Positions 10,992-29,555 are shown, numbered from the stretch's first letter. The stretch: 64,000 nt of DNA from Alphaproteobacteria bacterium (GCA_965216755.1 CBDCGL010000011.1:2400001-2464000), one strand, 5' to 3'. Made by a program: numbers and translations. The notes: generated from the sequence alone by a model not told the origin.

Positions 10992-11067
10992 GTCCCCATC
11001 GTCTAGCGGCCTAGGACATCGCCCTCTCACGGCGAAAACGGGGGTTCGATTCCCCCTGGGGACGCCA
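10992..11067 (+). tRNA. tRNA-Glu (anticodon CTC)
   Basis: 76-nt cloverleaf GTCCCCA...TGGGGAC, anticodon loop CT-CTC-AC, TTCGA T-loop, encoded CCA. Confidence 0.96.
11051..11067 (+). repeat. attL core (tRNA 3' end)
   Basis: TCCCCCTGGGGACGCCA, identical to 25531-25547. Confidence 0.95.
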
Positions 11068-11127
11068 ATTTTCTAAAGCGTTATAAATCAACGATTTAGA
11101 AACCAGTTTCCTGCCAAAATCCCTCTT

Positions 11128-11153
11128 AGTCTGTGCTCCGAGTCTGTGCTCCG
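11128..11153 (+). repeat. Tandem 13-bp repeat, probable integrase arm-type sites (left)
   Basis: AGTCTGTGCTCCG x2, recurring at 25444-25469; IHF-consensus AATCAACGATTTA at 11086-11098. Confidence 0.75.
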
Positions 11154-11176
11154 AGAGCACTGCACAGAAGGGAGTT

Positions 11177-12691
11177 TTGGCCATCACCCAATATCTGAGT
11201 CGGCGGAACGGCGGCGGCTACTTCTATCAGCGTCGAGTGCCGAAGGACCTGCGGTATCGCCGTGACGTGTTCAAAAGCCAATTCATTGAAGTCTACTTAG
11301 GCACCTCAGACAGGGCCGTGGCCAAGCGCAAGGTGTCCGCCATCAATGAGCAGTGGGAACGGACGTTCGACGCCATGCGGCGCGGTGATGCGATCACGGC
11401 GGAAACGATAGAACGGATCAGGTTGGCCGCCCAACTCAGAGCGTACAAGGCGATGGTGGCCGATCCTATCGACGGCCCAGGCCGGATAGCCGACGACCTT
11501 GAGCGGTTCTTGCCCGATATTGAAGCCGACACGAAACGGTACCTGGTACGTGCCGGGCTCGACCCGAACGACGAACGCAATAAGGCCGCCGCCATGCGGG
11601 CGATCTATATCGGCACCATGAACGCACAGGTGTTTTTCGAGAAGGGAGTCGAGCCGCCACCGGTTCCGGCGTATGACCCGTTGGTGTTCGATACCCCGCC
11701 CGACGGCCTCACCATCATGGAAGCGGCGGAGGCATACGAGAAGGCGGCGGACGTTGCCACGTCGGAGAAGACGCGCAAACAGTTGAAACAGTCGGCTCGG
11801 CTGTTTGCCGATCACTGCGGCAAGGACAAGCCGGTGGCGGCGATCACCGGACGAAACGCGGTGGCGTTCCTCGATAGGCTGGCGAAGATCAATCCCGATT
11901 ACCGACGTGATCCCAAGTCGGCTGAATTGACGCTAACGCAGCTTGAGGAGTCGTATCCCGCTGTAGACGGAAAGGGATTGTCCGCCGCGACCTTGAACCG
12001 TCACGCCATGAACATGCGCGTGCTGATCAACTGGCTGATCCGCCGCCACGAATTACCCGAGGAGCACCGAAACCCGTTCGACCGAAAGTCGCGGAAGGTG
12101 AAGGCGGACGGATATGAGCCCATGTCCGACATCGAGATTGCCACGCTGCTACATGGTGAACCGCTGGCCCGTTCCTTTGGTCGAAATTTTGGAGAATGCA
12201 TCGGCTGGCTGGTTGCGCTCGGAGCCTACACCGGGGCCAGGGCTGGCGAGTTGTGCGCGCTGACCAAAGACGACGTGCGCAAGAAGGACGGCGTTCACTA
12301 TCTGGCGATCTGCCAGGGCAAAACCGAGGCTGCCGCGCGCGTCATTCCGATACACCCGGAGTTGGTCAAGGCGGGATTCATCGAATACGTCAAGACGTGC
12401 CAAGACTCGTTGTTCGGTATCACCGGGAAATATCTCGCGAAACGATTCCCAGACTACCGCCGAAAGCATGGTGTGGACCGACCCGGCCTAGTGTTTCATT
12501 CGTTGCGCAAGTCCTTCGTCACGTCCTTCGAAGAAGCCGAGGTGCCCAGCGATACCGTTGCGCTCCTGGTAGGCCACAAGTCCGGGCGATCCTTCACCTT
12601 CTCGGTGTACTCCCCGCATGGGCCGACGCTTAAGAAGCTGGCGGCTGCCGTGGACAAGATCATCTACAAGACCGTGAAGCTGGCGCGATAG
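11177..12691 (+). CDS. Tyrosine integrase with DUF6538-like N-terminal domain
   Basis: YFYQRRVPKDL N-terminus; catalytic TGAR, GKT, HSLR, LVGH and VY. Confidence 0.92.
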   Translation: MAITQYLSRRNGGGYFYQRRVPKDLRYRRDVFKSQFIEVYLGTSDRAVAKRKVSAINEQWERTFDAMRRGDAITAETIERIRLAAQLRAYKAMVADPIDGPGRIADDLERFLPDIEADTKRYLVRAGLDPNDERNKAAAMRAIYIGTMNAQVFFEKGVEPPPVPAYDPLVFDTPPDGLTIMEAAEAYEKAADVATSEKTRKQLKQSARLFADHCGKDKPVAAITGRNAVAFLDRLAKINPDYRRDPKSAELTLTQLEESYPAVDGKGLSAATLNRHAMNMRVLINWLIRRHELPEEHRNPFDRKSRKVKADGYEPMSDIEIATLLHGEPLARSFGRNFGECIGWLVALGAYTGARAGELCALTKDDVRKKDGVHYLAICQGKTEAAARVIPIHPELVKAGFIEYVKTCQDSLFGITGKYLAKRFPDYRRKHGVDRPGLVFHSLRKSFVTSFEEAEVPSDTVALLVGHKSGRSFTFSVYSPHGPTLKKLAAAVDKIIYKTVKLAR

Positions 12692-12865
12692 GTCGCCCAA
12701 CCAAGCGGACCTCCGCCCCACCGCCGCCGTGGTCATAGGTTTAATCATGTATTTCAGTTAGTTACGGCGAAAGTTACTCGAAAACACCCCGTAACCCACT
12801 GAAATCAATAGAGAAGCCCTTGACCAGAACGGCGGTCTAAGTCATTGTTTTTATTGATATTTTAC

Positions 12866-12894
12866 TTGACACCTGGCCTGGCTTGTGGTATGGT
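12866..12894 (+). promoter_or_regulatory. Near-consensus sigma70 promoter with extended -10
   Basis: TTGACA-17 bp-TATGGT with TG before the -10; AT-rich upstream tract. Confidence 0.75.
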
Positions 12895-12911
12895 TCGCGT
12901 ATCATTGGAAT

Positions 12912-12983
12912 CCCGATGTAGCTCAGTTGGCAGAGCACTCCCGTTCGGGGGAGAGGCCGGAGGTTCGAAACCTCCCATCGGTA
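12912..12983 (+). ncRNA. tRNA-like RNA / pseudo-tRNA (tRNA-Pro-like body, 6-nt anticodon loop, no encoded CCA)
   Basis: Stems CCCGATG/CATCGGT, GCTC/GAGC, CTCCC/GGGAG and GGAGG/CCTCC; D-loop AGTTGGCA; T-loop TTCGAAA. Confidence 0.8.
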
Positions 12984-13131
12984 TCAGCCTTCAATTGATG
13001 TAGCCACGGCTGAACGCTGAACAGCGTCACAGATACGGGCTGCGGATGAAGCGCATCTTGCGCCAGATATCTGCGGCCCGTTTTGCATTTGGCCGCCTCC
13101 ATTTCTGGCGCGCAGACATGGAGGAAGAACG

Positions 13132-13590
13132 ATGCAGCATGATCTTTATTCGCCACGCGAGGCAGCAGATTACTGCGGCCTTTCGCTCAGCAAGTTCAAT
13201 CAGCTTCACAGTGCTGGTACCGGGCCGCGCTATAGCAGGCTCGGAACCGAAAAGACCGCGCGTCTTGTATTTCAGCGGAAGGACCTGGATAGGTGGCTGA
13301 ATGGACGCGGCGCGGACACCGTCGCGCGGGCAAAGAGGTACCGGGAGCTGCGGCGGGCCGTTGAACGGGCGACAGCCGAGAGGAAAAAGACGCACGAGGC
13401 CGAAAGCCGTTTTCGTAAGCAGCTTTCAGAAATTATTTCAGGCGCGCCTCACTTCGGAATTGATGACCTTCGTGGCCTTATGACGCGTTCGGGTTACACG
13501 ACCATTCGCGGCATTCCCGCCGATCAGCGCGACAAGTTCCTTACGGCGCTGGTTGACGCAGCCATGTCGGGAGGGTCCGACAATGACTGA
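13132..13590 (+). CDS. AlpA/excisionase-like HTH protein with C-terminal extension
   Basis: YSPREAADYCGLS...GPRY...FQRKDLDRW; GGAGG RBS. Confidence 0.8.
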   Translation: MQHDLYSPREAADYCGLSLSKFNQLHSAGTGPRYSRLGTEKTARLVFQRKDLDRWLNGRGADTVARAKRYRELRRAVERATAERKKTHEAESRFRKQLSEIISGAPHFGIDDLRGLMTRSGYTTIRGIPADQRDKFLTALVDAAMSGGSDND

Positions 13591-15628
13591 GAACAAGTCG
13601 CGCCTCGATATGGCGCAGTGGTTCGCGGAGAAGGGCATCTCTGTCTTCATGTGCGAACCGAACAGCAAGCGGCCCCTCGACGGCTATAGTTGGTATCTCC
13701 GGCAGAGCACCGACGCAGACACGATTGCCGGATGGTTCGATCAGGTGCCGGACGCGAATTTTGGCTGTCATTGGGGTGCCAATTATGTGGCAATCGACCT
13801 GGATATCAAGCCACAGCATAACGGCGTGCGTGAGTTCGAGAAAATTTGCGCCGAGCACGGCGTTGACAACTTTCTGTTGGAACTCGACACCCTCATTGTG
13901 CAAACACCCAGCGGCGGATACCACCTCGTATTCCAGGCTCCATTCCCGTGCGCCAATACCAACAGCTTCCCGGAAGGCATCGATGTGCGCGGTGTGGTCG
14001 GATACACCGTGGGAGCAGGCAGCGAAGACAGCCGTGGCGAATGGCGGATCATCAGCGATGCAGAGATTGCGTCGTTGCCTGAGTGGCTGACAGGCTACTT
14101 GGAGGAACCGGGTCGCAAGAACCCGAACCATGACGTGCCAGTCGTCGAACTCGATCTCGACGAGAACGTAGAGTACGCGCTGGGATGGCTGCGCGACCGC
14201 GAACCCGCCTTGCAGGGACATAATGGTGACGATCACACCTACGAAACAATCCAGTTCCTTCGCGACTTTGGTTTGAGCCAGGACAAGATTTTCGAGACGT
14301 TGAACGTCGAATGGAATGGCCGTTGTGATCCGCCATGGGGTCACGAGGAGTTGTTGGCGAAGATCAAGAATGCCTGGGCCTACGGGCAGAACCGTCCGGG
14401 CGTTAAGAGCCCAACGTGGAGGATGCAGCGGATCAATCGGGCGCACGGTGGCTGGTCCGACTACATCGCCACGCACTATCCCCGGCTTGCCGTAGATAAC
14501 ACTGCGCACAATCTGGCGCTGGCCGTGGACGCTAACGATATTCCTGAAAACAATCCCGTTCCAACGCACCGTCGCAGCTTCAAGCCTCGCAGCGAAGCAG
14601 AACAGGATGCGCAGCCCGATCCAGAATGGCTGATTAAGGGCGTATTGCAGAAGGAAACGCTCGCGCTGTTTTATGGGCCGGAAAATTCCTTCAAGTCGTT
14701 TCTGGTTCTCGACATGGTGCTTTCAGCGGCGGCGGGCATACCATGGGCCAGCTTTGGCGGATGCGAAGATGCTGGAGGCTTTGCGCCTCGGAGGCCGTTG
14801 ATCACGGTTTACATTGCCGGGGAAGGATCGCACGGTATCGAGAAGCAGCGCAGGCCCGCATGGCGGCAGCATCGCGGCGTTACAGAACCTTTGCCATTCT
14901 ACACCGTGAATGAGATGCCTTTCTTCAAGAGCGCCGATGAAGTAGAGCGACTGATTTCCGAAATTAGGGAGGCCGAGATCGAGCCGGATATTATTGTGGT
15001 CGATACCGCAGCCCGCGCCATGCTCGACTTGGACGAAAACTCCGCCAAGGATACCGGCGTATTTGTTGCCGCGTGTGATCGGCTGAAGCGGGAATTTCGC
15101 TGTGCCGTGGTCGTAGTCCATCATTCAGGTAAGGACAACGCCAAGGGCTCGCGCGGCTCTACCAATCTGCCAGCTTCTTTCGATGCGCGCTTCATGGTGA
15201 CAGGCGACACCGGCTCATTGGTCGCGAAGATCAAGAATGAGAAGCAGAAGGACGGTGAACCATGGTCAATGGCGATCACCTTTCAGGGCGAGCAGGTCGC
15301 AACCAATCTCGGCAGGAACTCCCTCGTATTCAAACGCGTGACTCCGGGTGCCGCTAAGGCCAAGGAAACAGACCCCCGCCTCGATCTGGCCCTGGAGATT
15401 ATCTCAAAGTGCAAGGGCAAGATGCCGCTCAGCATGAACGCATTGGCCGAAGAAATGGCGCGCCGCTACGCCACCGAGGAATTGACCGATGGCGAGTTGG
15501 AGAGGGCCAAGGAAGGCATGAGGAACTACCTCAAGAAGGCGGTCATGGGCGAATTGGCTGCCTGCGCCCACAAGGCAGACAAGGCCAGGAACGCGCGGTG
15601 GGTATTCGAGGATCGGTCCGGGAGGTGA
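13583..15628 (+). CDS. Bifunctional primase/polymerase (Prim-Pol) fused to an AAA_25/RepA-type helicase
   Basis: SKRP, AIDLD, QTPSGGYHLVF, GIDVRG; Walker A GPENSFKS, Walker B IIVVDT, VVHHSGK, RGS. Confidence 0.88.
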   Translation: MTENKSRLDMAQWFAEKGISVFMCEPNSKRPLDGYSWYLRQSTDADTIAGWFDQVPDANFGCHWGANYVAIDLDIKPQHNGVREFEKICAEHGVDNFLLELDTLIVQTPSGGYHLVFQAPFPCANTNSFPEGIDVRGVVGYTVGAGSEDSRGEWRIISDAEIASLPEWLTGYLEEPGRKNPNHDVPVVELDLDENVEYALGWLRDREPALQGHNGDDHTYETIQFLRDFGLSQDKIFETLNVEWNGRCDPPWGHEELLAKIKNAWAYGQNRPGVKSPTWRMQRINRAHGGWSDYIATHYPRLAVDNTAHNLALAVDANDIPENNPVPTHRRSFKPRSEAEQDAQPDPEWLIKGVLQKETLALFYGPENSFKSFLVLDMVLSAAAGIPWASFGGCEDAGGFAPRRPLITVYIAGEGSHGIEKQRRPAWRQHRGVTEPLPFYTVNEMPFFKSADEVERLISEIREAEIEPDIIVVDTAARAMLDLDENSAKDTGVFVAACDRLKREFRCAVVVVHHSGKDNAKGSRGSTNLPASFDARFMVTGDTGSLVAKIKNEKQKDGEPWSMAITFQGEQVATNLGRNSLVFKRVTPGAAKAKETDPRLDLALEIISKCKGKMPLSMNALAEEMARRYATEELTDGELERAKEGMRNYLKKAVMGELAACAHKADKARNARWVFEDRSGR

Positions 15629-15673
15629 GGGACTGCATTGACCGGATTGGCGACGCATGGGTATAGGTCATAG

Positions 15674-16774
15674 ATGACAACACAAACTGTCCTCACATTG
15701 GACGCTAGGGACCACGTGATGCTCGAAGTCATGCGCGATTATTTCAACGTGCCCCCTGACCGCATGCAGCGAGAAATCCAGGGAATGCTCGCTAAGACCG
15801 TAGCTGTGTTATCTAGTAAAGGAATTAATTACAGCGACTTGAAAACCGCACTCGTGCCCGACCCGAAGAGACGGGAGATCGCACTGGTGTTTGATACGTA
15901 CGATATGAAGGAGTCATGGTATGGGCTTCCGATCCATGCCGCATTGATCCCTCTTTTCAACAAGCAGAGCAATCACAGCATACTTACCGGCGACTACACT
16001 GGTGGCAATGACCAGCAAGATCCGCTCTACGAAGCGTTTGTCGCAGATGTCCAGCTAGTTAGAAATGTTGATTGGCGACACAGCACCCAGTTCTACATCG
16101 TCTACATCAACAACCTGACTGACAAAATGGTCGAGACGTTCCACAACGGTCTGTTGAATTTCGCGCCTTACGTCGGGTTTGCGGATACGACTTTCGCGTC
16201 CCGCTTCAAATTTTATCTCTCAGCAAAGCTCGTCAATTTGTGCATCAAGCATCGGCGAATCATCTTGATGGGCCACGAGGACGATGTGGACAATAATGAA
16301 GACACAAATATGCACGGCTACCCTTGGGAAGATCACGGATATACATGCAGAAGTCTCCAGGGTATGTACTTCGGAGTTCTACTTTCCTATAAAATCGAAC
16401 GACCGGTTTTCGAGGGATTTGAAGTGGACAGCGAGTTCTCGATTAACGCAGTGCACCCCAATCCATTGCCGTTGTCTGATTTCGAGATTCGGATTGATGA
16501 GAGCAAATTCGGCTACCTAACTTCCGAAAAGGCCGGAACTCTAAAGCGAATGGGACTGCTTGACGGCGATCTCTCCGACCTGAAGAAACTCGTGGCCCAA
16601 AAAATATCGTCTAATTACATCTACAACATGACGCACGACGAAAGGCACAACACGACCAAGTTCGATATTATTCTAGAAGTGCATCCGACTGACGGTTCAT
16701 CGCCACTTCGCGTCCTAGTGGCACTTGAGTACATTCCGAAAGATAAGTGCCTTCGTCTAATAACGCTTTATTGA
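15674..16774 (+). CDS. Hypothetical cargo protein, possible C-terminal DUF6883/BECR-like RNase domain
   Basis: 366-aa ORF, visibly lower GC; C-terminus IDESKFGYL...KFDIILEV...LRLITLY. Confidence 0.6.
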   Translation: MTTQTVLTLDARDHVMLEVMRDYFNVPPDRMQREIQGMLAKTVAVLSSKGINYSDLKTALVPDPKRREIALVFDTYDMKESWYGLPIHAALIPLFNKQSNHSILTGDYTGGNDQQDPLYEAFVADVQLVRNVDWRHSTQFYIVYINNLTDKMVETFHNGLLNFAPYVGFADTTFASRFKFYLSAKLVNLCIKHRRIILMGHEDDVDNNEDTNMHGYPWEDHGYTCRSLQGMYFGVLLSYKIERPVFEGFEVDSEFSINAVHPNPLPLSDFEIRIDESKFGYLTSEKAGTLKRMGLLDGDLSDLKKLVAQKISSNYIYNMTHDERHNTTKFDIILEVHPTDGSSPLRVLVALEYIPKDKCLRLITLY

Positions 16775-16829
16775 ATGTGCGGAGTTTACGTGGAGTCGCC
16801 CGCGTCTCATGGCAGCTATTTTTCTTGCT

Positions 16830-16993
16830 TACCAACGGTTGGTAGCCAGCAATTTACCAACGCTACCAACATTGCCATAAGTCATTGATTTCGCTGTTGG
16901 TAAGTTACCAACGAAATCTACCAACCGTGGCGTCCTGGTTGGTTGGTAGGTACCCCCTCCTATAGGGGTACCAACTACCAACGCCATACCAAG
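16830..16993. repeat. Iteron cluster, probable replication origin of the element
   Basis: TACCAAC x7 forward and x3 reverse; central IHF consensus 16878-16890; GGTACCCC/GGGGTACC inverted repeat. Confidence 0.8.
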
Positions 16994-17106
16994 GCCAAGG
17001 GATCATCCTGGCCATAAGGATTCTCCGAAGCGGCCTGTGGCCCCGAAATTGGCCCCATGAAATTCGTCCCACGCGCGCGCGTGACTCCCCGTCATCATGA
17101 CCGTGA

Positions 17107-17823
17107 TCATGCTGCTTGAACCTTCACCGTCGCGTCGTCCAACTGAAGCCGTTCCCGTAGCCGCCGAACAGCAGTGGCCGTCCATGCCCCACCCTTCACC
17201 GACGACTCGCCGCGCCGGCTCAAAGTCCGCGCGATCTGACAGTTGCCCATACCCCTGGCCAGCATATCCGAAATCTCCCCCCTCCATGCTTCGGCCCTAG
17301 CATCAGCCGCCCTAGATTTCCCCGCCAGAGCCGCTGTGTTGCCATTGGCCCTGATATGCTCCACCAAGGCCGCTCCGCCGTCCGGGTTGCCCAGGCGTTG
17401 CCCTCTTGCCTTGGCGACCTTCAACGCGGCTTTGGTGCGCTCGCTAATAAGACCAGCCTCAAGCTCTGCCACGGCTGCCATGGACGTGAGTAGAAACTTT
17501 CCCTGCGGTCCCGAAACTTGCGGCAGATCGCAGAACCGAACTTCAACGCCGCTGTCTAGTATGGTCAGAAGAAAATGTGCGCTACGGGCCAACCTGTCGA
17601 GCTTCGCTACCACAAGCGTTGCGCCGGTACGACGACAGTGGTCCAACGCCCTGCCGAGTTCCTGCCGGTCATCACGTTTGCCGCTTTCGGTTTCAGTGTA
17701 GCTTGCAACGATATCAGCATCCGGGCCTAGGTGTTGCTTCACAGCTTCACGTTGCGCAGCCAAACCTAAACCGGACTTGCCTTGTCGGTCGGTTGAAACT
17801 CGATAGTACATGATAGCTTTCAT
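17107..17823 (-). CDS. Small serine recombinase (resolvase/invertase family)
   Basis: YYRVST..QG.SGLGL.AQ, ETESG, KLDRLAR, ISERTKAAL, LGNP; GGAG RBS. Confidence 0.92.
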   Translation of the reverse strand: MKAIMYYRVSTDRQGKSGLGLAAQREAVKQHLGPDADIVASYTETESGKRDDRQELGRALDHCRRTGATLVVAKLDRLARSAHFLLTILDSGVEVRFCDLPQVSGPQGKFLLTSMAAVAELEAGLISERTKAALKVAKARGQRLGNPDGGAALVEHIRANGNTAALAGKSRAADARAEAWRGEISDMLARGMGNCQIARTLSRRGESSVKGGAWTATAVRRLRERLQLDDATVKVQAA

Positions 17824-17881
17824 GGTCTGTCTCCTACTTGGATGGAAAGATTTTCTGCGGCTTGGCTGTACGCCGATCACG

Positions 17882-17916
17882 GCAGCTTCGATGTACGCAG
17901 CAGCTTCGATGTACGC
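17882..17916. repeat. 17-bp direct repeat upstream of the resolvase
   Basis: GCAGCTTCGATGTACGC at 17882 and 17900. Confidence 0.7.
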
Positions 17917-18729
17917 CAGCCGAGGCAGTTTGACTGCACGGCCTGAACTTTGCTGCGATGGTTGGCGTTGATGTTCTGGTCATGCCCGGTTCAATTTCGA
18001 GAGTCTTTGTGCGACTGGGCTAGGCGGCTGGCTCAGAGTCCGTTGGCGGCCAAGATCGCGAGCGCACGGCCACAGCAGAATGCCCGCCGGTGAAAAGGCC
18101 TGTGGCGCGTGACGCTGAAGCTGGCGGAAACCTGCGGTTCCATAGCCTTTTCCTTGCGAATACTTGTGTCTGTGTCGTTTTGCAAAACGAGCATTTCGTT
18201 GTCTGACACCACAAAATATAGACGAAAATCATTACCGAGTCGTTAATATCGAAGCATTGAAGAAGAAAAAAATGAGAGAAACCAAAGACTAGCGAAGATC
18301 TCCCCCTAGGTCGATCAAACTCGGAATACAACATCTGGGGCCTGGCATCCCGACATGTCCATGTATTCTCCATTTTTCTTCATTTTTATTCGACCTATCA
18401 GATTTTTTGGGGCCTATTTTACTTGTAGTCCTATGCCCCGGATCATTTTCTACTTGGATCGTTTTGTCATCCAAAATTACAGTTCATTATTTTTGGGGTT
18501 TGCTCCCGAAAAGCATAGATTCACCGCCGCCAAAGTCAAAATTCCAGTTTTGCAGTGCGGTAAACTTGGCGGCGATTTGACAGATATTTGACACGTGATA
18601 CCATTAACTTGGCTTCATTACATAAATCTACGCCTAGAAAGCCCTTGGAAGCCCGCACAGAGGCTCTGCCGGTGGCGGCCAAATCCTAGGCCGGGATGCC
18701 GGGCGGGCGCTCACGGGGCTCTGCAGGCC

Positions 18730-19389
18730 ATGGAGACACGAATTTTGGGAAAGCGCGGACCAGCGAAGAACAGTTTGGAAATGCCGATCACCGTGGAGCG
18801 GCGGAAGGTGTTTTTGGACGCCTTGCGGGAGACTGGCGTATGGGCGCACGCCTGCCGCGTGGCGAGCCCGCATTCGCCGTCCGACACTTCAAACCCGCCT
18901 TGTAGCTCCAGCTTCCGGGCCTTGGTTCGTAGGGACATTGAATTTGCCGCTGCCGTCGAAGACGCGATGGAAACAGCAAGGGCAAACGTCTTGCTCGAAA
19001 TTCAGCGCCGTGGGCAGGACGGCTGGGACGAAAAGGTTTTCCAGAAGGGAATGCAGGCCGTTGACGCGGATGGAAATCCAGCCGTCATTCGCAAGTATTC
19101 CGACAACCTCTTGTTGGCCCGTGCGCGTTCGATGATGCCAGAACTGTTCTCGGAAAAGCATCACCACGAACACACGGTAAAGCGTGCAATGGGTGCCCAC
19201 ACGTTCGTCTCCGAAGATATCCATTTGCTCGACCCGGATCAGCGCGCGGCTCTTACCGATATCTTGCTCACGATTCAGCGCCGCCGTGGCGAGGCCGATA
19301 GCGCCCTCGAATATCAGCCAGCGGAAACAATCGACGCCGATTTCGAGGAAGTCGAATACGCAGAATTTGATTTGGGTAGGGAGGATTAA
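18730..19389 (+). CDS. Terminase small subunit-like protein
   Basis: FLDALRETG...ACRVA...EFAAAVEDAME...RRGQDGWDEKVFQKG...IRKYSDNLL pattern. Confidence 0.65.
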   Translation: METRILGKRGPAKNSLEMPITVERRKVFLDALRETGVWAHACRVASPHSPSDTSNPPCSSSFRALVRRDIEFAAAVEDAMETARANVLLEIQRRGQDGWDEKVFQKGMQAVDADGNPAVIRKYSDNLLLARARSMMPELFSEKHHHEHTVKRAMGAHTFVSEDIHLLDPDQRAALTDILLTIQRRRGEADSALEYQPAETIDADFEEVEYAEFDLGRED

Positions 19390-19394
19390 AACAA

Positions 19395-19634
19395 TTGGCT
19401 GACACGATGGATGCGACTGACCTTTTGTTGAGGGATTTGGCACTTAAGGATTCGGGATGGAGCCGGGTCGAAGGTCCGAACGGCTGTGCGTATTTCCCGG
19501 AAACGGCGAATGACGTTGATGCCTTTGACGCGCGCTGCATTGCTATGCACGAAAGCCAGAAGCCAATCGTCTTGGAGGAAAAGCCCGCCGTTACAGATTA
19601 CGCCGATTACATGCGGCTCAAGCGGGGAGATTAA
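19395..19634 (+). CDS. Hypothetical protein
   Basis: GGAGG RBS; TAATG overlap with next gene. Confidence 0.55.
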   Translation: MADTMDATDLLLRDLALKDSGWSRVEGPNGCAYFPETANDVDAFDARCIAMHESQKPIVLEEKPAVTDYADYMRLKRGD

Positions 19635-20131
19635 TGACGGTGCGCAGGCCAACTACATTGGCCGGTGACGCCGATTCCATTCTCGGCAATCTGCATAACG
19701 CCTCGGACATTGATGACCGGCCTATCACAGCTGAACGCCGGCTGTGGATGTCTGTGATCGCCAGGGCATGGCTGGACGCATTCGAAGCGAGCGATTGGTT
19801 CTTGAGGGCCAGCGAGTCGAAGTTGCGCCACCTCGATTTCGATCCCGCCATGGTCCGCCAGGAAGCGCGTAGGTGGCTGACCCTTGATTTCGGAGAATGG
19901 AAGTCCTACCGCGAAACCGTTTGCGATTTGGCGGGCGTTGACGAGCAGATGTTGCGGAATGCCGCTCGCTGTAGTCTCAATCTGGTGAAGGCGGACCAAC
20001 GGCCCACGGTAGAAATCGTCAATTTGGATACGATGTTCGCGGCGTTGCTGGACCGGGAAGGCGATGGAGAGGACTCCGACGAACTGGACGCGGCATTGGA
20101 GCGGCTGGCCCGTCTTGAGGTAGCAGCATAA
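19634..20131 (+). CDS. Phage-type hypothetical protein
   Basis: ERRLWMSVIARAWLDA...ARRW...VCDLAGVD; translationally coupled to upstream gene. Confidence 0.6.
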   Translation: MTVRRPTTLAGDADSILGNLHNASDIDDRPITAERRLWMSVIARAWLDAFEASDWFLRASESKLRHLDFDPAMVRQEARRWLTLDFGEWKSYRETVCDLAGVDEQMLRNAARCSLNLVKADQRPTVEIVNLDTMFAALLDREGDGEDSDELDAALERLARLEVAA

Positions 20132-20460
20132 CTCATTGAATTTCGTTATTTTAAAGTGATATAGGTCAGTAATATTGACCAAAAACTTGACAAACTATGT
20201 AGCTGCCCGGAAAATGAAAATTCATCGTCATATTCCTCACAGCCGGGGCGCGGCGAGCGATTCAATGCTCCCGGTTTCTATCTTCTAGCGGTGCGATGCC
20301 GCTAGTCGTACTCGACGGCCAATGACGGCGTGATGCCAGAGGCCACCTGCGGCGGGATGCTGCGCCAATCCGACAATTGAAATCTGATCGCTTTGCCCGT
20401 GGTGGGCGGAGCTTTGTCTTGATCGCTGCCCGCGTGAGAGCGGACGGCACAGCATGAGGA

Positions 20461-21435
20461 ATGCAAAAAATGTCTACAGCTACATCGAAGATTCGTGCCG
20501 GACTCGACGCGCACGAACGCGCAAAGTCTGGCGGAACTTTCAATCTGTCCAATCTTGCTGGCGCACCTGCCAGTGTTTCCGACCTGAACGATCTCGCGAA
20601 CAAGGCGACCGCCAAGAGGGATCGCCTCAAGGTCCTGGCCGAGTCGATCAACGCTGCGGTCGAAAAGTACAAGACGCAGAAGACGGTGGAGTATGCCGAG
20701 CTTGGCCGCATTCGCGACGGCAATCTTGTCACCGATACTTTGGGCGAAACCCGCAGGCGGGCGATGCTCGAACGCGAAGTGGCGAAGTTCACTCGCGATG
20801 CCCGCAAGGTTTCGGCGGACGAACGTTCGCGGCTCTTGTCTGAGCTCCACGATATTACGTCAAAGATTGCCGCTGTCCGCGACTCCTGGTCGGACCCGGT
20901 TGCGGTCCTGATGCGTCGAACGCTCGCAGACGCCAAGCGCGGTGTCTATGCGCAGAACCTTGCATCCGCTGGCCCCGTGGCCGTCGAAGACGCATTGCGT
21001 GACGCGGTGATCGGCAGAAACGCAGCGTTGGCGGCGGCTGCGCTCGATAGGCTGTCGGCCATGTCAAAGGATCAGGCGAAGTCGGTTCGCTTCTCCAAGC
21101 GCGACGTAGCCGAAAGTCTGGTTGCAGAGGAGTGGACCAAGGCGCGCGCTTTAATCGCCATGGTGGACCTTGCGACCGAGGAGTCTGAACTTGCCCAGGC
21201 TCAGGCCGAAGGCAGCCGCGACACGGCCAAGATGCTTATGCGTGTTGGTCGGTTGCGTAACGAACTCAGTGCCCTCGTGCCCGAACCTGCATCCCTGCCG
21301 GATGATGCCAAGCCGAGCAACCCTAAGCCCGGCATCTTGTCGAGTGAGGATTGGGAAAAGAATCTGAACGCTCGCTACCCCGCCCTGCCGGTGCCGAACA
21401 ATGTGCAAGTGATTGGTGGAGGCGGCAATGAGTGA
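20461..21435 (+). CDS. Alpha-helical/coiled-coil hypothetical protein
   Basis: 324-aa Ala/Arg/Glu-rich ORF with Pro-rich tail. Confidence 0.7.
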   Translation: MQKMSTATSKIRAGLDAHERAKSGGTFNLSNLAGAPASVSDLNDLANKATAKRDRLKVLAESINAAVEKYKTQKTVEYAELGRIRDGNLVTDTLGETRRRAMLEREVAKFTRDARKVSADERSRLLSELHDITSKIAAVRDSWSDPVAVLMRRTLADAKRGVYAQNLASAGPVAVEDALRDAVIGRNAALAAAALDRLSAMSKDQAKSVRFSKRDVAESLVAEEWTKARALIAMVDLATEESELAQAQAEGSRDTAKMLMRVGRLRNELSALVPEPASLPDDAKPSNPKPGILSSEDWEKNLNARYPALPVPNNVQVIGGGGNE

Positions 21436-21658
21436 CCCCGATTTCACCCGTGATGATGTTCGGACTTGGCTCGCCCGTCGCCCCGGCACGTTCGAGCAGG
21501 ACTCGGAGCGGCGGTGCTGGCGCGCGGCGTGGGAGCATTTCAATGACGCCCACTATCCGGTGGGTCACGATGTTGAGTTCATGATGATCGTCGAGGATTT
21601 GGGATTTGGCGTGCGGCCCACAGCCTTGGGCGGATTCATTCTCGACAAGGTGACATGA
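21428..21658 (+). CDS. Small hypothetical protein
   Basis: Overlaps stop of upstream gene; GGAGG RBS. Confidence 0.55.
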   Translation: MSDPDFTRDDVRTWLARRPGTFEQDSERRCWRAAWEHFNDAHYPVGHDVEFMMIVEDLGFGVRPTALGGFILDKVT

Positions 21659-22014
21659 GTTCGGCGGTGGGGATCACTAGCTCACTTCGCCGCCATGGGT
21701 GTCCGACTGGCGCTAGCGGTCGGACTCCCTCCAACTCCCCAAGTGGCGATATTGGGCGTGCTGATCGCATGGCCTACAGCGAGAGTGCGCGCAATGCTGC
21801 TGTGGCGAAGGCCGCCGACTAGACGGCTGCGCGGGCCGAACGTTTGGGAACGACTCCCGAGGCGATCCTGGAAGCGATCCAGGACGCGCATGGTTGCCGG
21901 AACAGATTGAGCGCGTGACGAGTCGCTATGTGCTGGAAGGAAGTCCGCCTCCATTGGAGGGCGTTCCGGCTTGGGTTGATAGGGAGATTGAGCGAAACGC
22001 GAGGCGATGGCGGC

Positions 22015-22884
22015 TTAGTAGTCGGGAGTCCAGTTACGTTGAATCTCGCGCAACTTCGCACGGTCAACTTTCCTTAGACCGAGACACAGCGACCAGAGTG
22101 GGAAGGACCAGTCATCTCGTATAGACCGGTTGCCTTTCTCATCATCGATGGCGAGTAGCCCCCTCGACTCCAAAGTTTCGAGAGTCTGCCAGTTCAACCC
22201 CTCCAATTCGTCCTTAGTAGTCTCCAGCTTTACCTCGACTGGTCGCCAGACTTCCGCAACAACAGCCAGTCCCTCATGCGTTGTCATCCCGGCTTGTTGC
22301 ATTGCGATGATCAGGCGAATCGCAGGTGACGTCCAATAGAAGGGCAAACGATCGATGATCGGGTGGTGCCAGTACCTTCCCGCTTCGTCGTTTCCTTCCC
22401 GAACATAGCCAACATAAAGATCGTCTTCTCTCCGCTGTGTGATGCGGTTTGGGAAAATCCAATCCACGTCTACCGGACCGTCAAGGTAATACTGCTCCCG
22501 TGCGTCATCTATGTGCCGCGTGATCTCAGCAAAGTTCGCGGGGCTCAATCCGGTAACGTCGACATAAATGCCCTTCGCTAAATGGCTGTAGAAGTAGCTT
22601 AGTGTCCGTGCTTTTTGCTTTGATTTCGCTGGTGGGCACCGCACGGCGTCAATGAGAATGAGAGCCTTAGCGGCTTCCTCCTCCGCAAGGTTGCCGATGA
22701 TCCTTGCGGCGTGGTGGTCGTCACTCTTACTTAGTTTCTGGGCTGCCGCGTCCAGGCGATTTGCGCACTCGACTATGAGAGACGTACCCTCAGCGACTTC
22801 CTTGAAAAGGTCAGCGTCCTTTAGCTGGCACAAATCCTTAATAGCGCGTTCCATCCGGCGTGATCCCAATGTGTGATTCGCCAC
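22015..22884 (-). CDS. AbiV-like (HEPN) abortive infection protein
   Basis: LAEEEAAKALILID and FYSHLAK motifs, later RE..LYV. Confidence 0.7.
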   Translation of the reverse strand: MANHTLGSRRMERAIKDLCQLKDADLFKEVAEGTSLIVECANRLDAAAQKLSKSDDHHAARIIGNLAEEEAAKALILIDAVRCPPAKSKQKARTLSYFYSHLAKGIYVDVTGLSPANFAEITRHIDDAREQYYLDGPVDVDWIFPNRITQRREDDLYVGYVREGNDEAGRYWHHPIIDRLPFYWTSPAIRLIIAMQQAGMTTHEGLAVVAEVWRPVEVKLETTKDELEGLNWQTLETLESRGLLAIDDEKGNRSIRDDWSFPLWSLCLGLRKVDRAKLREIQRNWTPDY

Positions 22885-23054
22885 GACGGCGTGCGGTCAT
22901 CTCAAGACGCCACGTCGTCAGCCCCTACATCGCAGCGATTTTGACTGGCGTCACCGCTTTGGCCTGAACTGCGTTGGCCGTTGCTTCTATACAGTCCATT
23001 CCAGGGCCCATTTAGGAAACTTGGCCCGTGTGACACTGCGCCGAAGTGATGGTC

Positions 23055-23576
23055 TCAATCTGACCATTGAAACTCCCTCGACTCATCTTCATCGACGAAA
23101 CTGTCTTTATCGAGGTTCTGGGTGTAGATGATGAGGTTTTTGCAGTCGTATCGCGCGGACGGCACAATTAAGCCGTCACAGCCCAGGTAATTTAGCGCAT
23201 CAGAAATCCCTTGGGTGCGCGAATAGTCTCGATTTTGATAGTCTGCTTGGCGTACACCGAGTTTTTCAAGGTCCTCGAAACTAAGTTCGACGACGCGCTT
23301 CAAGCGGACCTTTAGTTTCCAGTTTAGGGCCTTCCTGTCGGGCCGTTGCTCGAACAGCGACCAAAATGTTTCGAACTCTGCGTCAGCCCCTTCGGCCATG
23401 AACGACGTATTGAGGACTTCGAACTCGCTATCCGGACTATTCCAACGACCACGCTTTCCGTTACTACCTTGGAGGGGGCTCTTGTCAGCCCAGACAACTC
23501 GATTGGTGTCTCCCTCAAAGGGTCTTTGGGGGCAACTCTCTAGCTGCTCCAATAAGCCGGGATCGCGCTCCAACAT
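23055..23576 (-). CDS. RES-domain toxin (putative NAD+ phosphorylase / ADP-ribosyltransferase fold)
   Basis: GRWN...LNTS, AEF, GLIVPSAR, NLIIY. Confidence 0.85.
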   Translation of the reverse strand: MLERDPGLLEQLESCPQRPFEGDTNRVVWADKSPLQGSNGKRGRWNSPDSEFEVLNTSFMAEGADAEFETFWSLFEQRPDRKALNWKLKVRLKRVVELSFEDLEKLGVRQADYQNRDYSRTQGISDALNYLGCDGLIVPSARYDCKNLIIYTQNLDKDSFVDEDESREFQWSD

Positions 23577-23594
23577 GTCCCGGTAGACCTAACG

Positions 23595-23972
23595 CTATGT
23601 GTATGTGGGATCAGCCATTGCCTGAATGGCTTCCAAGACCTCCTCAATTCGACCTTCCTGTATTAGATCAGCAGGCCGAAGGCCGTTAAAATACTTGTGC
23701 CTAGAATACAGCCAAGCGCGCGCAGTCTTTGGGTCGGAATAAAACTCTGAGAGTCGCTCCACGATGTACTCTAGATCAACAAGAAGGCTTTCCTTGTTTG
23801 GCCGGGGATAGGCACGACCTTGGTTCCACCGGGAAACAGTCTCAGGCGTGGTCCCGAGCATATTCGCGACATCGACCCCACGAATTGCCGCCCGCCTCTC
23901 TAAAAGTTCCAGTTTTTCCGCGACCACGTTTCTTTCCGTGACCGCATCCCTTTCCGCGACTGCATTTGACAT
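23595..23972 (-). CDS. Xre/MbcA/ParS-type antitoxin (HTH + DUF2384-like)
   Basis: DVANMLGTTPETVSRW HTH; ARAWL...FNGLRPADLI. Confidence 0.85.
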   Translation of the reverse strand: MSNAVAERDAVTERNVVAEKLELLERRAAIRGVDVANMLGTTPETVSRWNQGRAYPRPNKESLLVDLEYIVERLSEFYSDPKTARAWLYSRHKYFNGLRPADLIQEGRIEEVLEAIQAMADPTYT

Positions 23973-24015
23973 TGTTAGCCTCCGATGGTTCCGCTTTCTA
24001 CAGGTGAGAACTCAA

Positions 24016-25299
24016 TCAACCGCGCGCCGCACGACGCTGAGGTATCTGCGAAAACGAAACTGCGCGGCTTTCTTGTACGAATTTCCCTAAGCCTACTCGA
24101 AGACGCTCCAGAACCTTCCTGTTCTCACTCATTCGCTTGGCCAAGTTTTCCTGAGCTTCGAGCGGCAGAGATTCCGAGAACACTGCCGCATCCGTTGCCG
24201 GACGAAGAGTTTCTTCCATGAAGCGCTGTGCGCGAAGCTGTTCGGGAATGGCACTAAGGCGTCGAATTTCACCCGACCGCTGGATGAGACTATGCCGAAC
24301 CGGGTTGTCCAGCATATCCTTCCAACCTTTTGGACAGCATATCTTTTCCCTACAGCCAAACCGGGATTTCGACCCATGCGCTCCAAAGAATGCTTCTGCC
24401 TCTTCCCTCTTCAGATGAATGTCCAAAGGAGCAATGTGGACCCTCGGAGCCCAAGTGAACCCATGGCTATTGGAGTTAGCGGGACGCGTCCATGAACTTG
24501 CGTTGAAACTCTCTTTTTGGGTGACGCCGTGGGAAATCCCTCCGACCGCGCCGAACGCCAATGCGCTAAGCCCGCGAAGTCCACCCATCATGTCTCCGAC
24601 GAGGGGCACACCAAGTAAATGAAACTCAGCAGCACCATTCACCAGATTTCTGACCGCAGCGTGAGTCACAGTTCCGCTCTGGGAAACTTTGATCCACAGG
24701 GAGTCGATGGGCAGCCCTCTCAACTTTTCGAGAATAATCTGACGTTCATCAACGGTTCGAAACGCTTCATACGACACGGCCAGGGAATAAAAGATCGGCA
24801 CATTCTTGGCACCCGCTCTATCCAGATACAGCCGTAGGTGCCTCGTGGATCGAACGTCAACTTCTAACCATGGGCTATTGGCGCTTTCGATAAAGTGAGT
24901 TGGGGCGAGAACTGCGGTGTAGCGCTGACCCACAACGTACTGAGCAATCGCGTCAGCAATCCGACGGGCACTTATATCATCGAAATCACCCGGCCCTTGC
25001 GGACGATCCAAGGCCCAAGGCAACGCGGACAACCGTTCATTGAAGCCGCCTATCGACCCTAGTTCCTGGGTTCGTGGATCGAGAATTGCGTCTCGGTTTC
25101 GCTCAATCATGAGATGATGCAATTCTGAGTGGCGGTCCTCATGAAGAGGATCGAAAACCACGCCATGTAGGCCAACAGAGCCACTAGCTACCGCGTCCGC
25201 AATTGCTCGATGGTCGATATAGGATGGGCGCACGTACCATCCCAGAGGTTCCGGAGCGGCCCGGACAGCCCGAGGGAACTGTGCTTGTGATGCTGACAT
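24016..25299 (-). CDS. Uncharacterised 427-aa protein, probable TIM barrel with a Cys/His cluster
   Basis: Alternating beta/alpha segments (GVVFDP, AILDP, VLAPTH, IFYSLAV, LWIKV, GGISHG); C-x4-CC...H near C-terminus. Confidence 0.6.
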   Translation of the reverse strand: MSASQAQFPRAVRAAPEPLGWYVRPSYIDHRAIADAVASGSVGLHGVVFDPLHEDRHSELHHLMIERNRDAILDPRTQELGSIGGFNERLSALPWALDRPQGPGDFDDISARRIADAIAQYVVGQRYTAVLAPTHFIESANSPWLEVDVRSTRHLRLYLDRAGAKNVPIFYSLAVSYEAFRTVDERQIILEKLRGLPIDSLWIKVSQSGTVTHAAVRNLVNGAAEFHLLGVPLVGDMMGGLRGLSALAFGAVGGISHGVTQKESFNASSWTRPANSNSHGFTWAPRVHIAPLDIHLKREEAEAFFGAHGSKSRFGCREKICCPKGWKDMLDNPVRHSLIQRSGEIRRLSAIPEQLRAQRFMEETLRPATDAAVFSESLPLEAQENLAKRMSENRKVLERLRVGLGKFVQESRAVSFSQIPQRRAARG

Positions 25300-25343
25300 C
25301 TACGGTCTCCACGGCATTATGCCATGACATATTGATCGACAGA

Positions 25344-25373
25344 AACATAGACGAAAAGATTGACGTTGTCAAT
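25344..25373 (-). promoter_or_regulatory. sigma70 promoter with overlapping palindromic operator
   Basis: Minus-strand TTGACA(25372-25367)-17 bp-TATGTT(25349-25344); palindrome ATTGAC-GTT-GTCAAT at 25359-25373. Confidence 0.7.
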
Positions 25374-25443
25374 GACATTCTTGGTGGGGCGTAGAGACCG
25401 GTCACGTCTACGGAATGCGACGCGATAAAGGTAAACAGGGTTG

Positions 25444-25469
25444 AGTCTGTGCTCCGAGTCTGTGCTACC
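25444..25469 (+). repeat. Probable integrase arm-type sites (right)
   Basis: AGTCTGTGCTCCG-AGTCTGTGCTACC, matching 11128-11153. Confidence 0.75.
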
Positions 25470-25530
25470 ATTGGTCAAAAAGGCGCAGAAATCAGGGATT
25501 TTAGGCGTTTCAGGGTCCTACCGGGTCCCC

Positions 25531-25547
25531 TCCCCCTGGGGACGCCA
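25531..25547 (+). repeat. attR core
   Basis: TCCCCCTGGGGACGCCA duplicate of tRNA-Glu 3' end. Confidence 0.95.
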
Positions 25548-26897: not shown

Positions 26898-26984
26898 CTG
26901 ATCGCATGCCCCGCCCGGAGTAGGTGCAATTTCGCGACTGGTGCTATCGGCATGTGTGAGCCAAGCATTACGGGTGAGAACGCT

Positions 26985-29500: not shown

Positions 29501-29555
29501 TGCGCGCGGTCGGCAGGAAGGTTGGCGTACCACTCAAAATTCACCGACACAACGA

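What the first reader, a model, noticed from the sequence alone, without database searches (positions are those of the whole stretch)
12866..13131. Strongly promoted tRNA mimic leading the satellite replication operon
Seen: TTGACA-17-TATGGT, then 17 nt later a 72-nt cloverleaf whose D, anticodon and T stems pair perfectly. It has a 6-nt anticodon loop (GUUCGG), a C1-U72 mismatch and no encoded CCA, and precedes the HTH-primase genes. The body resembles tRNA-Pro(CGG) and differs from the tRNA-Glu att site, so it is not an att by-product. Established: satellite P4 uses an RNase P-processed CI RNA from its leader for immunity. Inference: stems are kept while decoding features are lost, suggesting a processing signal, an immunity RNA or a decoy for anticodon nucleases.
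Basis: partly seen in the sequence, partly recalled or inferred. Interest (0 to 1): 0.72.

Follow-up and report, generated by a model that had tools for sequence, protein, structure and literature searches.

The report
Non-decoding tRNA-like gene in satellite island
A small mobile island carries a strongly promoted gene for an RNA that folds like a transfer RNA but cannot read codons; it is found nowhere else searched, so it is most likely a disabled cargo tRNA, though a decoy or control role is not excluded.

Summary
TTGACA-17-TATGGT (12866-12894) lies 17 nt before a 72-nt RNA (12912-12983). Rfam scores this RNA as a tRNA (50.8 bits) and ARAGORN cannot assign it an anticodon. It has a 6-nt anticodon loop, a C1·U72 mismatch and no CCA. 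Three run-level assemblies show the same G5 run, so an assembly slip is unlikely.

It sits between the integrase and an AlpA-like HTH/PrimPol operon. The host element is a 14.5-kb PICI-like island at tRNA-Glu (small-terminase homologue, RES-Xre, AbiV).

New points:
- A strong hairpin plus U-tract (13036-13090) and a hairpin that sequesters the Shine-Dalgarno site separate the RNA from the operon.
- The promoter ties for the best consensus match among the genome's 52 tRNA calls.
- All 50 CCA-encoding calls belong to other genes.

No homologue was found in 240 PrimPol-related loci, about 480 relatives' genomes, the phage and plasmid collections, or IMG/VR and JGI pattern scans. The scan's own notes hold nothing similar.

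P4-CI-like antisense pairing is not supported.

Best reading (0.5): a foreign tRNA-Pro(CGG)-like cargo gene that no longer decodes. Its promoter-terminator cassette now fronts the replication operon. A selected tRNA mimic remains possible (about 0.25).

The parts
10992..11067 (+). Host tRNA-Glu(CUC), intact. Its last 17 nt (11051-11067) form attL.
   Evidence: ARAGORN. Rfam 60.7 bits. The 17-nt direct repeat recurs at 25531-25547.
11177..12691 (+). Tyrosine integrase (DUF6538 plus Phage_integrase)
   Evidence: Pfam. phrog_1 integrase 7.5e-39.
12720..12836 (.). Long imperfect inverted repeat between the integrase stop and the promoter. Possibly the integrase terminator or an operator.
   Evidence: 48-nt arms. 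Folds at -47.9 kcal/mol, z -7.6.
12843..12865 (+). A+T-rich tract directly upstream of the -35 hexamer (UP-element-like)
   Evidence: Read: 19 of 23 bases are A or T, in a region of 57-64% G+C. Calling it an UP element is inference.
12866..12894 (+). Sigma-70-type promoter TTGACA-17-TATGGT with TG extension
   Evidence: Ties for the best consensus match (10 of 12) among the upstream regions of all 52 ARAGORN tRNA calls in the genome.
12912..12983 (+). tRNA-like gene, 72 nt including A73. It has a 6-nt anticodon loop (12943-12948), C1·U72 and no CCA. U(-1) at 12911 can pair with A73.
13036..13090 (+). Intrinsic-terminator-like hairpin (13036-13080) followed by TTTTGCATTT
   Evidence: Folds at -29.4 kcal/mol; 0 of 200 shuffles fold as well. 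The simple terminator scan missed it because its loop limit is 3-8 nt.
13096..13124 (+). Hairpin CCUCCAUUUCUG / CAGACAUGGAGG that pairs the Shine-Dalgarno GGAGG of the HTH gene
   Evidence: Inverted repeat I7. Present in the minimum-energy fold of 13036-13135.
13132..13590 (+). AlpA/excisionase-like HTH protein (152 aa)
   Evidence: HTH_17 1.6e-5, just under Pfam's cut-off. phrog_66 excisionase/regulator 5.4e-7.
13553..15628 (+). PrimPol plus AAA_25 primase-helicase
   Evidence: Pfam. PHROG primase/polymerase families.
18595..19389 (+). Small-terminase homologue
   Evidence: phrog_4044 2.3e-23.
22015..22884 (-). AbiV-family (HEPN) abortive-infection protein
   Evidence: TIGR04498 28.4 bits, cut-off 27. 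Pfam HEPN_AbiV 25.2 bits, just under its cut-off.
23055..23972 (-). RES toxin (23055-23576) with Xre/ParS-type antitoxin (23595-23972)
   Evidence: Pfam RES 6.1e-13 and Xre_MbcA_ParS_C 7.8e-6. NF049845.
25531..25547 (+). attR, the second copy of the 17-nt tRNA-Glu 3' end. The island spans 11051-25547.
   Evidence: Sequence read.

Best explanation
This is a self-contained, foreign, tRNA-derived gene carried in the accessory slot between the integrase and the AlpA-like regulator of a 14.5-kb PICI-like satellite island.

Shown:
- The cassette is an A+T-rich tract, a near-consensus promoter, a 17-nt gap, a 72-nt cloverleaf, a 52-nt trailer, then a strong hairpin with a U-tract.
- The RNA keeps the stems of an L-shaped tRNA. 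By my reading it also keeps the usual tertiary-contact bases (U8, A14, G18G19, G53-U54-U55-C56, A58, C61).
- Its anticodon arm is one nucleotide short, its first acceptor pair is C·U, and it lacks the CCA that the other 50 CCA-encoding tRNA calls of the host carry.

Inferred:
- The promoter fires constitutively and most transcripts stop at the hairpin.
- RNase P, whose RNA is present in the host, trims the 5' leader and leaves a stable tRNA-shaped RNA.
- That RNA cannot present a normal anticodon and is a poor aminoacylation substrate.
- It is therefore a disabled cargo tRNA of tRNA-Pro(CGG)-like ancestry.
- No other sigma-70-like promoter lies before the HTH gene. The cassette therefore probably also acts as promoter plus attenuator for the AlpA-like/PrimPol operon. 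Read-through and opening of the Shine-Dalgarno hairpin would set how much regulator is made.
For: Anatomy.

Foreign origin:
- Island G+C is 48-59% against 63-64% in the flanks.
- No CCA, whereas 50 of 52 ARAGORN calls in the genome encode it. The only other exception is a call that Rfam does not support.

tRNA-Pro-like body:
- The best host match is tRNA-Pro(CGG).
- 13 of the 20 tRNAs found at the best BLAST places in relatives are tRNA-Pro(CGG), with 55-61 identical positions.

Lower score: Rfam gives 50.8 bits against 60.7-76.8 for the 10 canonical host tRNAs scored.

Not a conserved part of the element family:
- 0 of 240 PrimPol-related loci (80 genome, 80 viral, 80 metagenome) hold a tRNA call with an undetermined anticodon.
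- Rfam finds only two tRNA-Gln matches in the 15 nearest loci, both well upstream of the PrimPol gene; I take them for att-site tRNAs, which I did not verify.
- The closest relatives, L028 and L029, have no consensus promoter or terminator before their HTH gene.

Single promoter: only one sigma-70-like site lies in 12400-13600.

Host enzymes: RNase P RNA at 308 bits and a CCA-enzyme-family gene.

Accessory slot: the PICI paper PMC6092414 says accessory genes may lie between int and the regulator (passages read).
Against: - The promoter ties for the best consensus match among the genome's 52 tRNA calls. It is the only one with a perfect -35 hexamer plus a TG extension. A decaying gene would not need that.
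- All three internal stems are perfect. The only stem defect is at the terminal pair, where it harms the fold least. This pattern also fits selection for shape.
- No ancestor or sister copy with a 7-nt loop was found, so 'disabled' is inferred from tRNA rules and not from comparison.
- Expression, processing and termination are all unmeasured. No RNA run was listed.
- The hairpin could be a DNA operator and not a terminator.
Confidence: 0.5

Rival explanations
1. It is a selected tRNA mimic. The satellite makes an abundant L-shaped RNA that is deliberately non-decoding. It could act as a decoy or sponge for a tRNA-binding enzyme, such as an anticodon nuclease or HEPN RNase of the host, the helper phage or the island itself. 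Or it could be an RNase P-processed regulatory RNA that gates the AlpA-like/PrimPol operon.
For: - The promoter is the equal-best among 52 tRNA calls, with an A+T-rich upstream tract.
- The cloverleaf is the minimum-energy fold.
- The defects are confined to the anticodon loop, the 1:72 pair and the 3' end. These abolish decoding but not shape.
- The island carries an AbiV-family HEPN protein.
- The layout of strong promoter, small RNA, terminator and replication genes resembles phage-satellite P4 immunity (recalled, not tested by any paper read here).
Against: - It is a singleton. No homologue was found in any search, so there is no covariation or conservation.
- Its complementarity to leader, operon or island transcripts is weaker than that of shuffled sequences in 8 of 8 non-trivial tests.
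- No Rfam family other than tRNA matches, apart from two chance microRNA hits.
- The HEPN gene lies 9 kb away on the other strand.
- Relatives of the element do without it.
Confidence: 0.27
2. It is a fossil of an earlier recombination event. One version: a chromosomal or phage tRNA gene was captured with its promoter. Another: a former integration target was scarred in the anticodon loop by a tyrosine integrase. In either case the RNA itself has no present role.
For: - Many tyrosine integrases cross over in the anticodon loop (recalled; also a theme of earlier scan notes).
- The lesion is a 1-nt loss exactly there.
- The gene is adjacent to an integrase gene.
Against: - No second copy of the 3' part of the gene exists in the 64-kb window, allowing up to 3 mismatches. 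Repeat searches found no copy of any other part.
- The island's own att repeat is tRNA-Glu.
- The flanks match nothing in 401 class genomes.
- The promoter is in perfect condition.
Confidence: 0.08
3. It is a working adaptor with an unusual loop, for example one that shifts the reading frame or reads a codon after modification.
For: - The body is a good tRNA (50.8 bits).
- The loop retains UUCGG, as in the tRNA-Pro(CGG) loop UUCGGGA.
- The host has a CCA-enzyme-family gene.
Against: - The anticodon arm has 16 nt and not 17, in any register (5 bp with a 6-nt loop, or 4 bp with an 8-nt loop).
- C1·U72 removes the G72 that prolyl-tRNA synthetase uses (recalled).
- No RNase Z equivalog scores above its cut-off (best 104 bits against 293).
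- I saw no island gene that visibly needs a frameshift, but I made no systematic test.
- Full-text searches for phrases naming 6-nt anticodon loops found no relevant paper.
Confidence: 0.07
4. It is an assembly error in the G5 run (12947-12951), and the real gene has a 7-nt loop, giving anticodon UCG.
For: Homopolymer runs are error-prone on some sequencing platforms.
Against: - Contigs assembled separately from three runs (two samples) agree, with 0 gaps.
- C1·U72 and the missing CCA would remain.
- G32 and G37-G38 would be odd for an arginine tRNA (inference).
Confidence: 0.03

Closest known systems
Cargo tRNA genes of phages, prophages and satellites
   Same: A tRNA gene on a mobile element, foreign in sequence, with no encoded CCA and its own promoter. 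The nearest phage hits are annotated tRNA-Pro at 75-81% identity.
   Different: It has a 6-nt anticodon loop, a C1·U72 mismatch and no assignable anticodon, so it cannot serve as a spare or nuclease-resistant adaptor. The T5 tRNA-Lys that neutralises PARIS is such an adaptor (PMC11464382, search listing only).
P4 CI RNA and P1/P7 C4 antisense RNAs (recalled: RNase P-processed immunity RNAs cut from the leader of the operon they control)
   Same: The order of parts: a constitutive promoter, a small structured RNA, a terminator, then the replication genes of a satellite.
   Different: No Rfam family other than tRNA matches. There is no complementarity to the leader. This RNA is a true cloverleaf, not a stem-loop with an antisense box.
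Non-canonical tRNA genes and fragments created by integrating elements (PMC9897764, passages read)
   Same: A low-scoring, undetermined-isotype tRNA call inside an integrated element.
   Different: It is full length, has its own promoter and terminator, and is not a duplicate of the att-site tRNA.
Gram-negative PICIs such as EcCICFT073 (PMC6092414, passages read)
   Same: For the host island: int, an AlpA-like regulator and pri-rep in one direction, a terS homologue, about 14.5 kb, an att site at a tRNA, and no structural genes found.
   Different: That paper's passages describe no RNA gene between int and alpA. Here a near-consensus promoter and a terminator precede the regulator. Helper dependence is untested.
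Non-translating tRNA-like RNAs (tmRNA tRNA-like domain, Bacillus cereus tRNA-Other, viral tRNA-like structures; all recalled)
   Same: A tRNA shape used, or usable, for something other than ordinary decoding.
   Different: Those RNAs are conserved families with known partners and usually an aminoacylatable end. This one is a singleton with no CCA.

Membership tests
Canonical tRNA (Rfam RF00005) | Cloverleaf scoring above the family's gathering score | tested here: met
   50.8 bits against a gathering score of 29. This is lower than the 10 canonical host tRNAs scored, which reach 60.7-76.8.
Canonical tRNA (Rfam RF00005) | Seven-nucleotide anticodon loop with an assignable anticodon | tested here: not met
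   The loop is GUUCGG, 6 nt. ARAGORN calls 'tRNA-???' with a 2-nt anticodon.
Canonical tRNA (Rfam RF00005) | Fully paired 7-bp acceptor stem and a 3' CCA, which this host encodes in its genes | tested here: not met
   C1·U72. UCA follows A73. 50 of 52 ARAGORN calls in the genome encode CCA.
Canonical tRNA (Rfam RF00005) | Aminoacylation and use in translation | not testable with these tools
   No RNA run was listed.
P4 CI / C4-type immunity RNA | Sequence and structure match to the described family | tested here: not met
   The Rfam E-value search of 12700-13300 returned only tRNA and two chance microRNA hits.
P4 CI / C4-type immunity RNA | Antisense box complementary to sites in the leader it controls | tested here: not met
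   Best duplexes of the anticodon arm, the arm plus variable loop, or the whole RNA with leader, operon or island + strand are weaker than most shuffles. For example, arm against leader gives -12.9 against a shuffle mean of -17.6, and 99 of 100 shuffles do as well or better.
P4 CI / C4-type immunity RNA | Processing by RNase P and an effect on termination | not testable with these tools
   The host has RNase P RNA. No RNA data exist.
att-site tRNA duplicate or fragment | Shares sequence with the target tRNA, or has a partner repeat at an element end | tested here: not met
   The att repeat is tRNA-Glu. The 3' part of the tRNA-like gene is unique in the window at up to 3 mismatches.
PICI-type phage satellite (for the host island) | int, regulator, pri-rep and terS, with no structural or lysis genes, about 10-15 kb, at a specific att site | tested here: met
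   Of the 14 ORFs scanned against PHROGs, only integrase, excisionase/regulator, primase and small terminase matched.
PICI-type phage satellite (for the host island) | Induction and packaging by a helper phage | not testable with these tools

The most novel reading that the evidence does not exclude
A phage satellite makes, from the best tRNA-type promoter in the cell, an RNA that keeps the full tRNA shape but has been stripped of every feature needed for decoding. Those features are loop size, the 1:72 pair and the CCA end. The satellite would use it as a molecular decoy for a tRNA-targeting nuclease, or as an RNase P-processed switch in front of its AlpA-like/PrimPol replication operon. Either would be a new class of satellite-encoded tRNA mimic.
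Probability: 0.25. Interest if true: 0.7.

Novelty: new variant of a known kind. Interest (0 to 1): 0.4.

Why it matters
Mobile-element tRNAs are now known to act in phage-defence conflicts as replacements for cleaved host tRNAs. A tRNA-shaped RNA that cannot decode yet is driven by a top-grade promoter would be a different tool: a decoy or a processing and attenuation module. It would also be a compact natural cassette of promoter, RNase P site and terminator.

If it is only a disabled cargo tRNA, it is still a clean example of why undetermined-isotype tRNA calls inside islands should not be counted as tRNA genes. It also shows how a captured tRNA promoter can be reused to drive a satellite's control operon.

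Tried and rejected
Searches for a homologue that found nothing:
- BLAST of the cassette against the own genome found only itself.
- 61 relatives, 23 genomes of the order and 401 of the class. The best non-self hits are 80-83% identical over 61-76 nt, in the tRNA body only.
- Loop-length-agnostic and arm-specific patterns gave 0 hits in IMG/VR and in JGI metagenomes.
- Phage and plasmid collections returned only tRNA-Pro-like hits at 75-83%. One phage record in the >=99% identity band was not among the 15 rows listed and I did not examine it.
- The scan's own index held nothing similar by sequence.

Searches through neighbouring genes:
- PrimPol as a single query found nothing in genome contigs.
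- The PrimPol alignment A1 gave 80 loci each from genomes (80 kept of 341), IMG/VR (80 of 89) and metagenomes (80 of 509).
- ARAGORN found 25 tRNAs in the first 160 loci and 9 in the last 80. All had 3-nt anticodons. One search had scanned only 46 of the first 80 loci.
- blastn of the 440-nt int-HTH spacer against all 240 loci gave nothing better than E 0.014, and that hit was a tRNA body.
- The integrase has no close kin in IMG/VR or in 401 class genomes at E<=1e-40. That threshold was strict.

Ideas tested and dropped:
- Antisense target.
- Nested-element att site.
- Island-borne replacement for a split host tRNA. The host tRNA-Glu is intact.
- Reversed-orientation insertion into a tRNA 5' half. 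No 5' duplicate was found.

No RNA holder was listed for the stretch. Run X5, from a second study, holds only two 151-nt pieces beside the gene and none over it.

Full-text searches for papers naming a 6-nt anticodon loop found 0 papers and 1 irrelevant paper. Searches for tRNA-like RNAs in satellites, prophage immunity or decoys found nothing matching by title or abstract.

The RNase Z equivalog model found no hit above its cut-off. This does not show that 3' trimming is impossible.

Full report
**Observation.**
- TTGACA (12866-12871), a 17-nt spacer and TATGGT (12889-12894) preceded by TG form the only sigma-70-like site in 12400-13600.
- The stricter pattern TTGACA-N16-18-TATNNT occurs twice in the 64-kb window against 0.14 expected. 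Both copies are inside the island.
- Seventeen nucleotides after the -10 hexamer, Rfam's tRNA model matches 12912-12983 at 50.8 bits (gathering score 29).
- ARAGORN reports 'tRNA-???' with a two-base anticodon.
- The ARAGORN drawing and the Rfam alignment show perfect D (4 bp), anticodon (5 bp, CUCCC/GGGAG) and T (5 bp) stems.
- They also show a 6-nt anticodon loop GUUCGG (12943-12948), a C1·U72 mismatch, and A73 followed by UCA in place of CCA.
- ARAGORN also pairs U(-1) at 12911 with A73, giving an 8-bp helix with an internal C·U.
- The anticodon arm has 16 nt where a tRNA has 17. No register restores a 5-bp stem with a 7-nt loop.
- Alone, the RNA folds into the cloverleaf as its minimum-energy structure (-31.6 kcal/mol).
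- By my reading, the usual tertiary-contact bases are all present (U8, A14, G15/C48, G18G19, G53-U54-U55-C56, A58, C61).

**Not an artefact.** Contigs that Logan assembled separately from runs X1, X2 and X3 cover the gene with no differing letter and no gap. These runs come from two samples of one study, at depth 2-6.5.
- They may include the window's source, and they are contigs, not reads. A raw-read check is still worth doing.
- A homopolymer slip is unlikely, and it would not explain C·U or the missing CCA.

**How unusual it is in its own genome.** ARAGORN finds 52 tRNA calls in the 5.0-Mb genome.
- 50 of them encode CCA. The exceptions are this gene and a call on contig C10.
- The C10 call and a 95-nt 'tRNA-Val' call get no Rfam match at E<=1, so they are probably false positives.
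- Ten canonical host tRNAs score 60.7-76.8 bits in Rfam. This gene, at 50.8, scores below all of them.
- Its closest host relative is tRNA-Pro(CGG), with 59 identical positions.
- Of the 20 tRNAs found at the best BLAST places in 19 relatives' loci, 13 are tRNA-Pro(CGG) with 55-61 identical positions. Two tRNA-Thr(CGU) share its acceptor stem and D arm.
- The acceptor and anticodon stems differ from those of tRNA-Pro by paired changes. The gene therefore descends from a distinct, once-functional tRNA lineage, not from a recent copy of the host gene (inference).

**Context.** A 17-nt direct repeat of the tRNA-Glu(CUC) 3' end (11051-11067 and 25531-25547) bounds a 14.5-kb island. The island has lower G+C than its flanks, 48-59% against 63-64%. 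It encodes:
- a DUF6538-type tyrosine integrase;
- an HTH_17/excisionase-like protein;
- a PrimPol-AAA_25 primase-helicase;
- a serine resolvase;
- a small-terminase homologue (phrog_4044, 2.3e-23);
- a RES toxin with an Xre/ParS antitoxin;
- an AbiV-family protein.

None of the 14 ORFs scanned matched a capsid, tail or lysis family. This is the layout of a Gram-negative PICI as described in PMC6092414 (passages read). The word 'satellite' is therefore reasonable, but helper dependence is untested. That paper also notes that accessory genes may sit between int and the regulator, which is where this gene lies.

**The transcription unit.**
- Upstream of the -35 hexamer lies a 23-nt tract with 19 A or T (12843-12865).
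- After the -10 hexamer comes TCGCG. Both features resemble stable-RNA promoters of E. coli (recalled; inference).
- I scored the 90 nt upstream of all 52 tRNA calls against the consensus. This promoter ties for the best match (10 of 12). It is the only one with a perfect -35 hexamer and a TG extension.
- TATGGT also appears in the best-scoring hexamer pair upstream of three canonical host tRNAs.
- Fifty-two nucleotides after the RNA comes a 45-nt hairpin (13036-13080; -29.4 kcal/mol; 0 of 200 shuffles fold as well), followed by UUUUGCAUUU. This looks like an intrinsic terminator. The simple scan missed it because of its loop limit.
- Next, CCUCCAUUUCUG/CAGACAUGGAGG (13096-13124) pairs the Shine-Dalgarno sequence of the HTH gene. 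That gene starts at 13132.
- The RNA gene is therefore a complete unit of its own. No other consensus promoter precedes the HTH gene, so read-through from this unit is the simplest source of operon transcripts (inference).

**Search for relatives.** Nothing like the gene was found.
- BLAST of the cassette found only canonical tRNA bodies, at most 83% identical over 61-76 nt. This covered 61 relatives (25 with any match), 23 genomes of the order (self only) and 401 of the class (13 non-self).
- Four patterns gave no hit in IMG/VR or JGI metagenomes. One of them left the whole anticodon arm free.
- Phage and plasmid collections gave tRNA-Pro-like hits at 75-83%.
- Through the neighbouring PrimPol gene I collected 240 related loci. 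ARAGORN found 34 tRNAs in them, all with normal anticodons.
- Rfam found only two tRNA-Gln matches in the 15 nearest loci. Both lie well upstream of PrimPol, and I take them for att-site tRNAs.
- The int-HTH spacer matches nothing in these loci.
- The two closest relatives (64% and 55% PrimPol identity, from Kiloniellaceae metagenome-assembled genomes) have a divergent integrase. They have no consensus promoter or terminator before their HTH gene.
- The RNA is therefore a lineage-specific addition, not a part of the replication module.

**Mechanism tests.**
- P4-CI-like antisense control needs complementarity to the leader. The best duplexes of the anticodon arm, the arm plus variable loop, or the whole RNA with leader, operon or island + strand were weaker than most shuffled controls in all eight non-trivial comparisons.
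- No immunity-RNA family matches.
- The 3' part of the gene has no second copy in the window, so it is not an att site of a nested element.
- The host tRNA-Glu is intact, so it is not a replacement copy.
- The host has RNase P RNA and a CCA-enzyme-family gene. It has no RNase Z equivalog above the cut-off. So 5' trimming is plausible, and 3' maturation is uncertain.

**Verdict.** Most likely (0.5) this is a foreign cargo tRNA gene that no longer decodes, kept as a promoter-RNA-terminator cassette in front of the satellite's control operon.

A selected tRNA mimic, acting as decoy or switch, is the main rival (0.27). It is favoured by the quality of the promoter and by defects that spare the fold. 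It is weakened by the complete lack of conservation and of any identifiable partner.

A recombination fossil (0.08), a working odd adaptor (0.07) and an assembly error (0.03) are less likely.

Full-text searches found no paper on 6-nt anticodon loops or on such a gene in satellites. Subscription journals are not covered by that library.

Noticed in passing
window 12720-12836: A long imperfect inverted repeat (48-nt arms) lies between the integrase stop and the RNA promoter. It folds at -47.9 kcal/mol with z -7.6. It could be the integrase terminator, an operator or an origin-like element.
   Followed up: partly
window 11128-11150 and 25444-25466: Two identical 23-nt direct repeats (AGTCTGTGCTCCGAGTCTGTGCT) lie about 60 nt inside each island end. 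In the excised circle they would flank the att core symmetrically. They may be arm-type integrase binding sites.
   Followed up: no
window 25344-25372 (- strand): This is the second near-consensus promoter of the window (TTGACA-17-TATGTT). It faces the 427-aa gene of unknown family (24016-25299). It may drive the RES-Xre and AbiV genes behind it.
   Followed up: no
window 22015-25299 (- strand) and 26952-28406 (+): The island's cargo is a RES toxin with an Xre/ParS antitoxin plus an AbiV-family HEPN protein. Just outside attR lies a separate 484-aa protein with HEPN/RES N-terminal and RES domains. Two RES genes therefore sit within 5 kb of each other.
   Followed up: partly
window 29704-30243: Five tandem copies of a 108-nt unit (60-74% identical to the first) lie inside a 375-aa ORF (29190-30317). 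They would encode a repeat protein.
   Followed up: no
G000 C10:16354-16439 and C11:202542-202636 (loci L283, L284): Two other odd ARAGORN calls, an 86-nt 'tRNA-?(at)' and a 95-nt 'tRNA-Val(tac)', get no Rfam match at E<=1. They are probably false positives.
   Followed up: yes
L148, L263, L266, L270 (about 2.4-2.9 kb after the start of the PrimPol match): Four related phage contigs each carry a 90-nt ARAGORN 'tRNA-Pro(agg)' call with the anticodon at position 30. That is an unusual geometry and a recurrent feature downstream of PrimPol.
   Followed up: no
window 12725-12875 and 13141-13291: A run from a second study under another organism label (X5) holds two 151-nt pieces identical to the island on either side of the RNA gene. 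The element or its host therefore occurs beyond the first study.
   Followed up: partly
G000 C11:16122-16198: The host carries a tRNA-Arg(UCG) in addition to ACG, CCG, CCU and UCU. From memory, this is an uncommon isoacceptor in bacteria.
   Followed up: no
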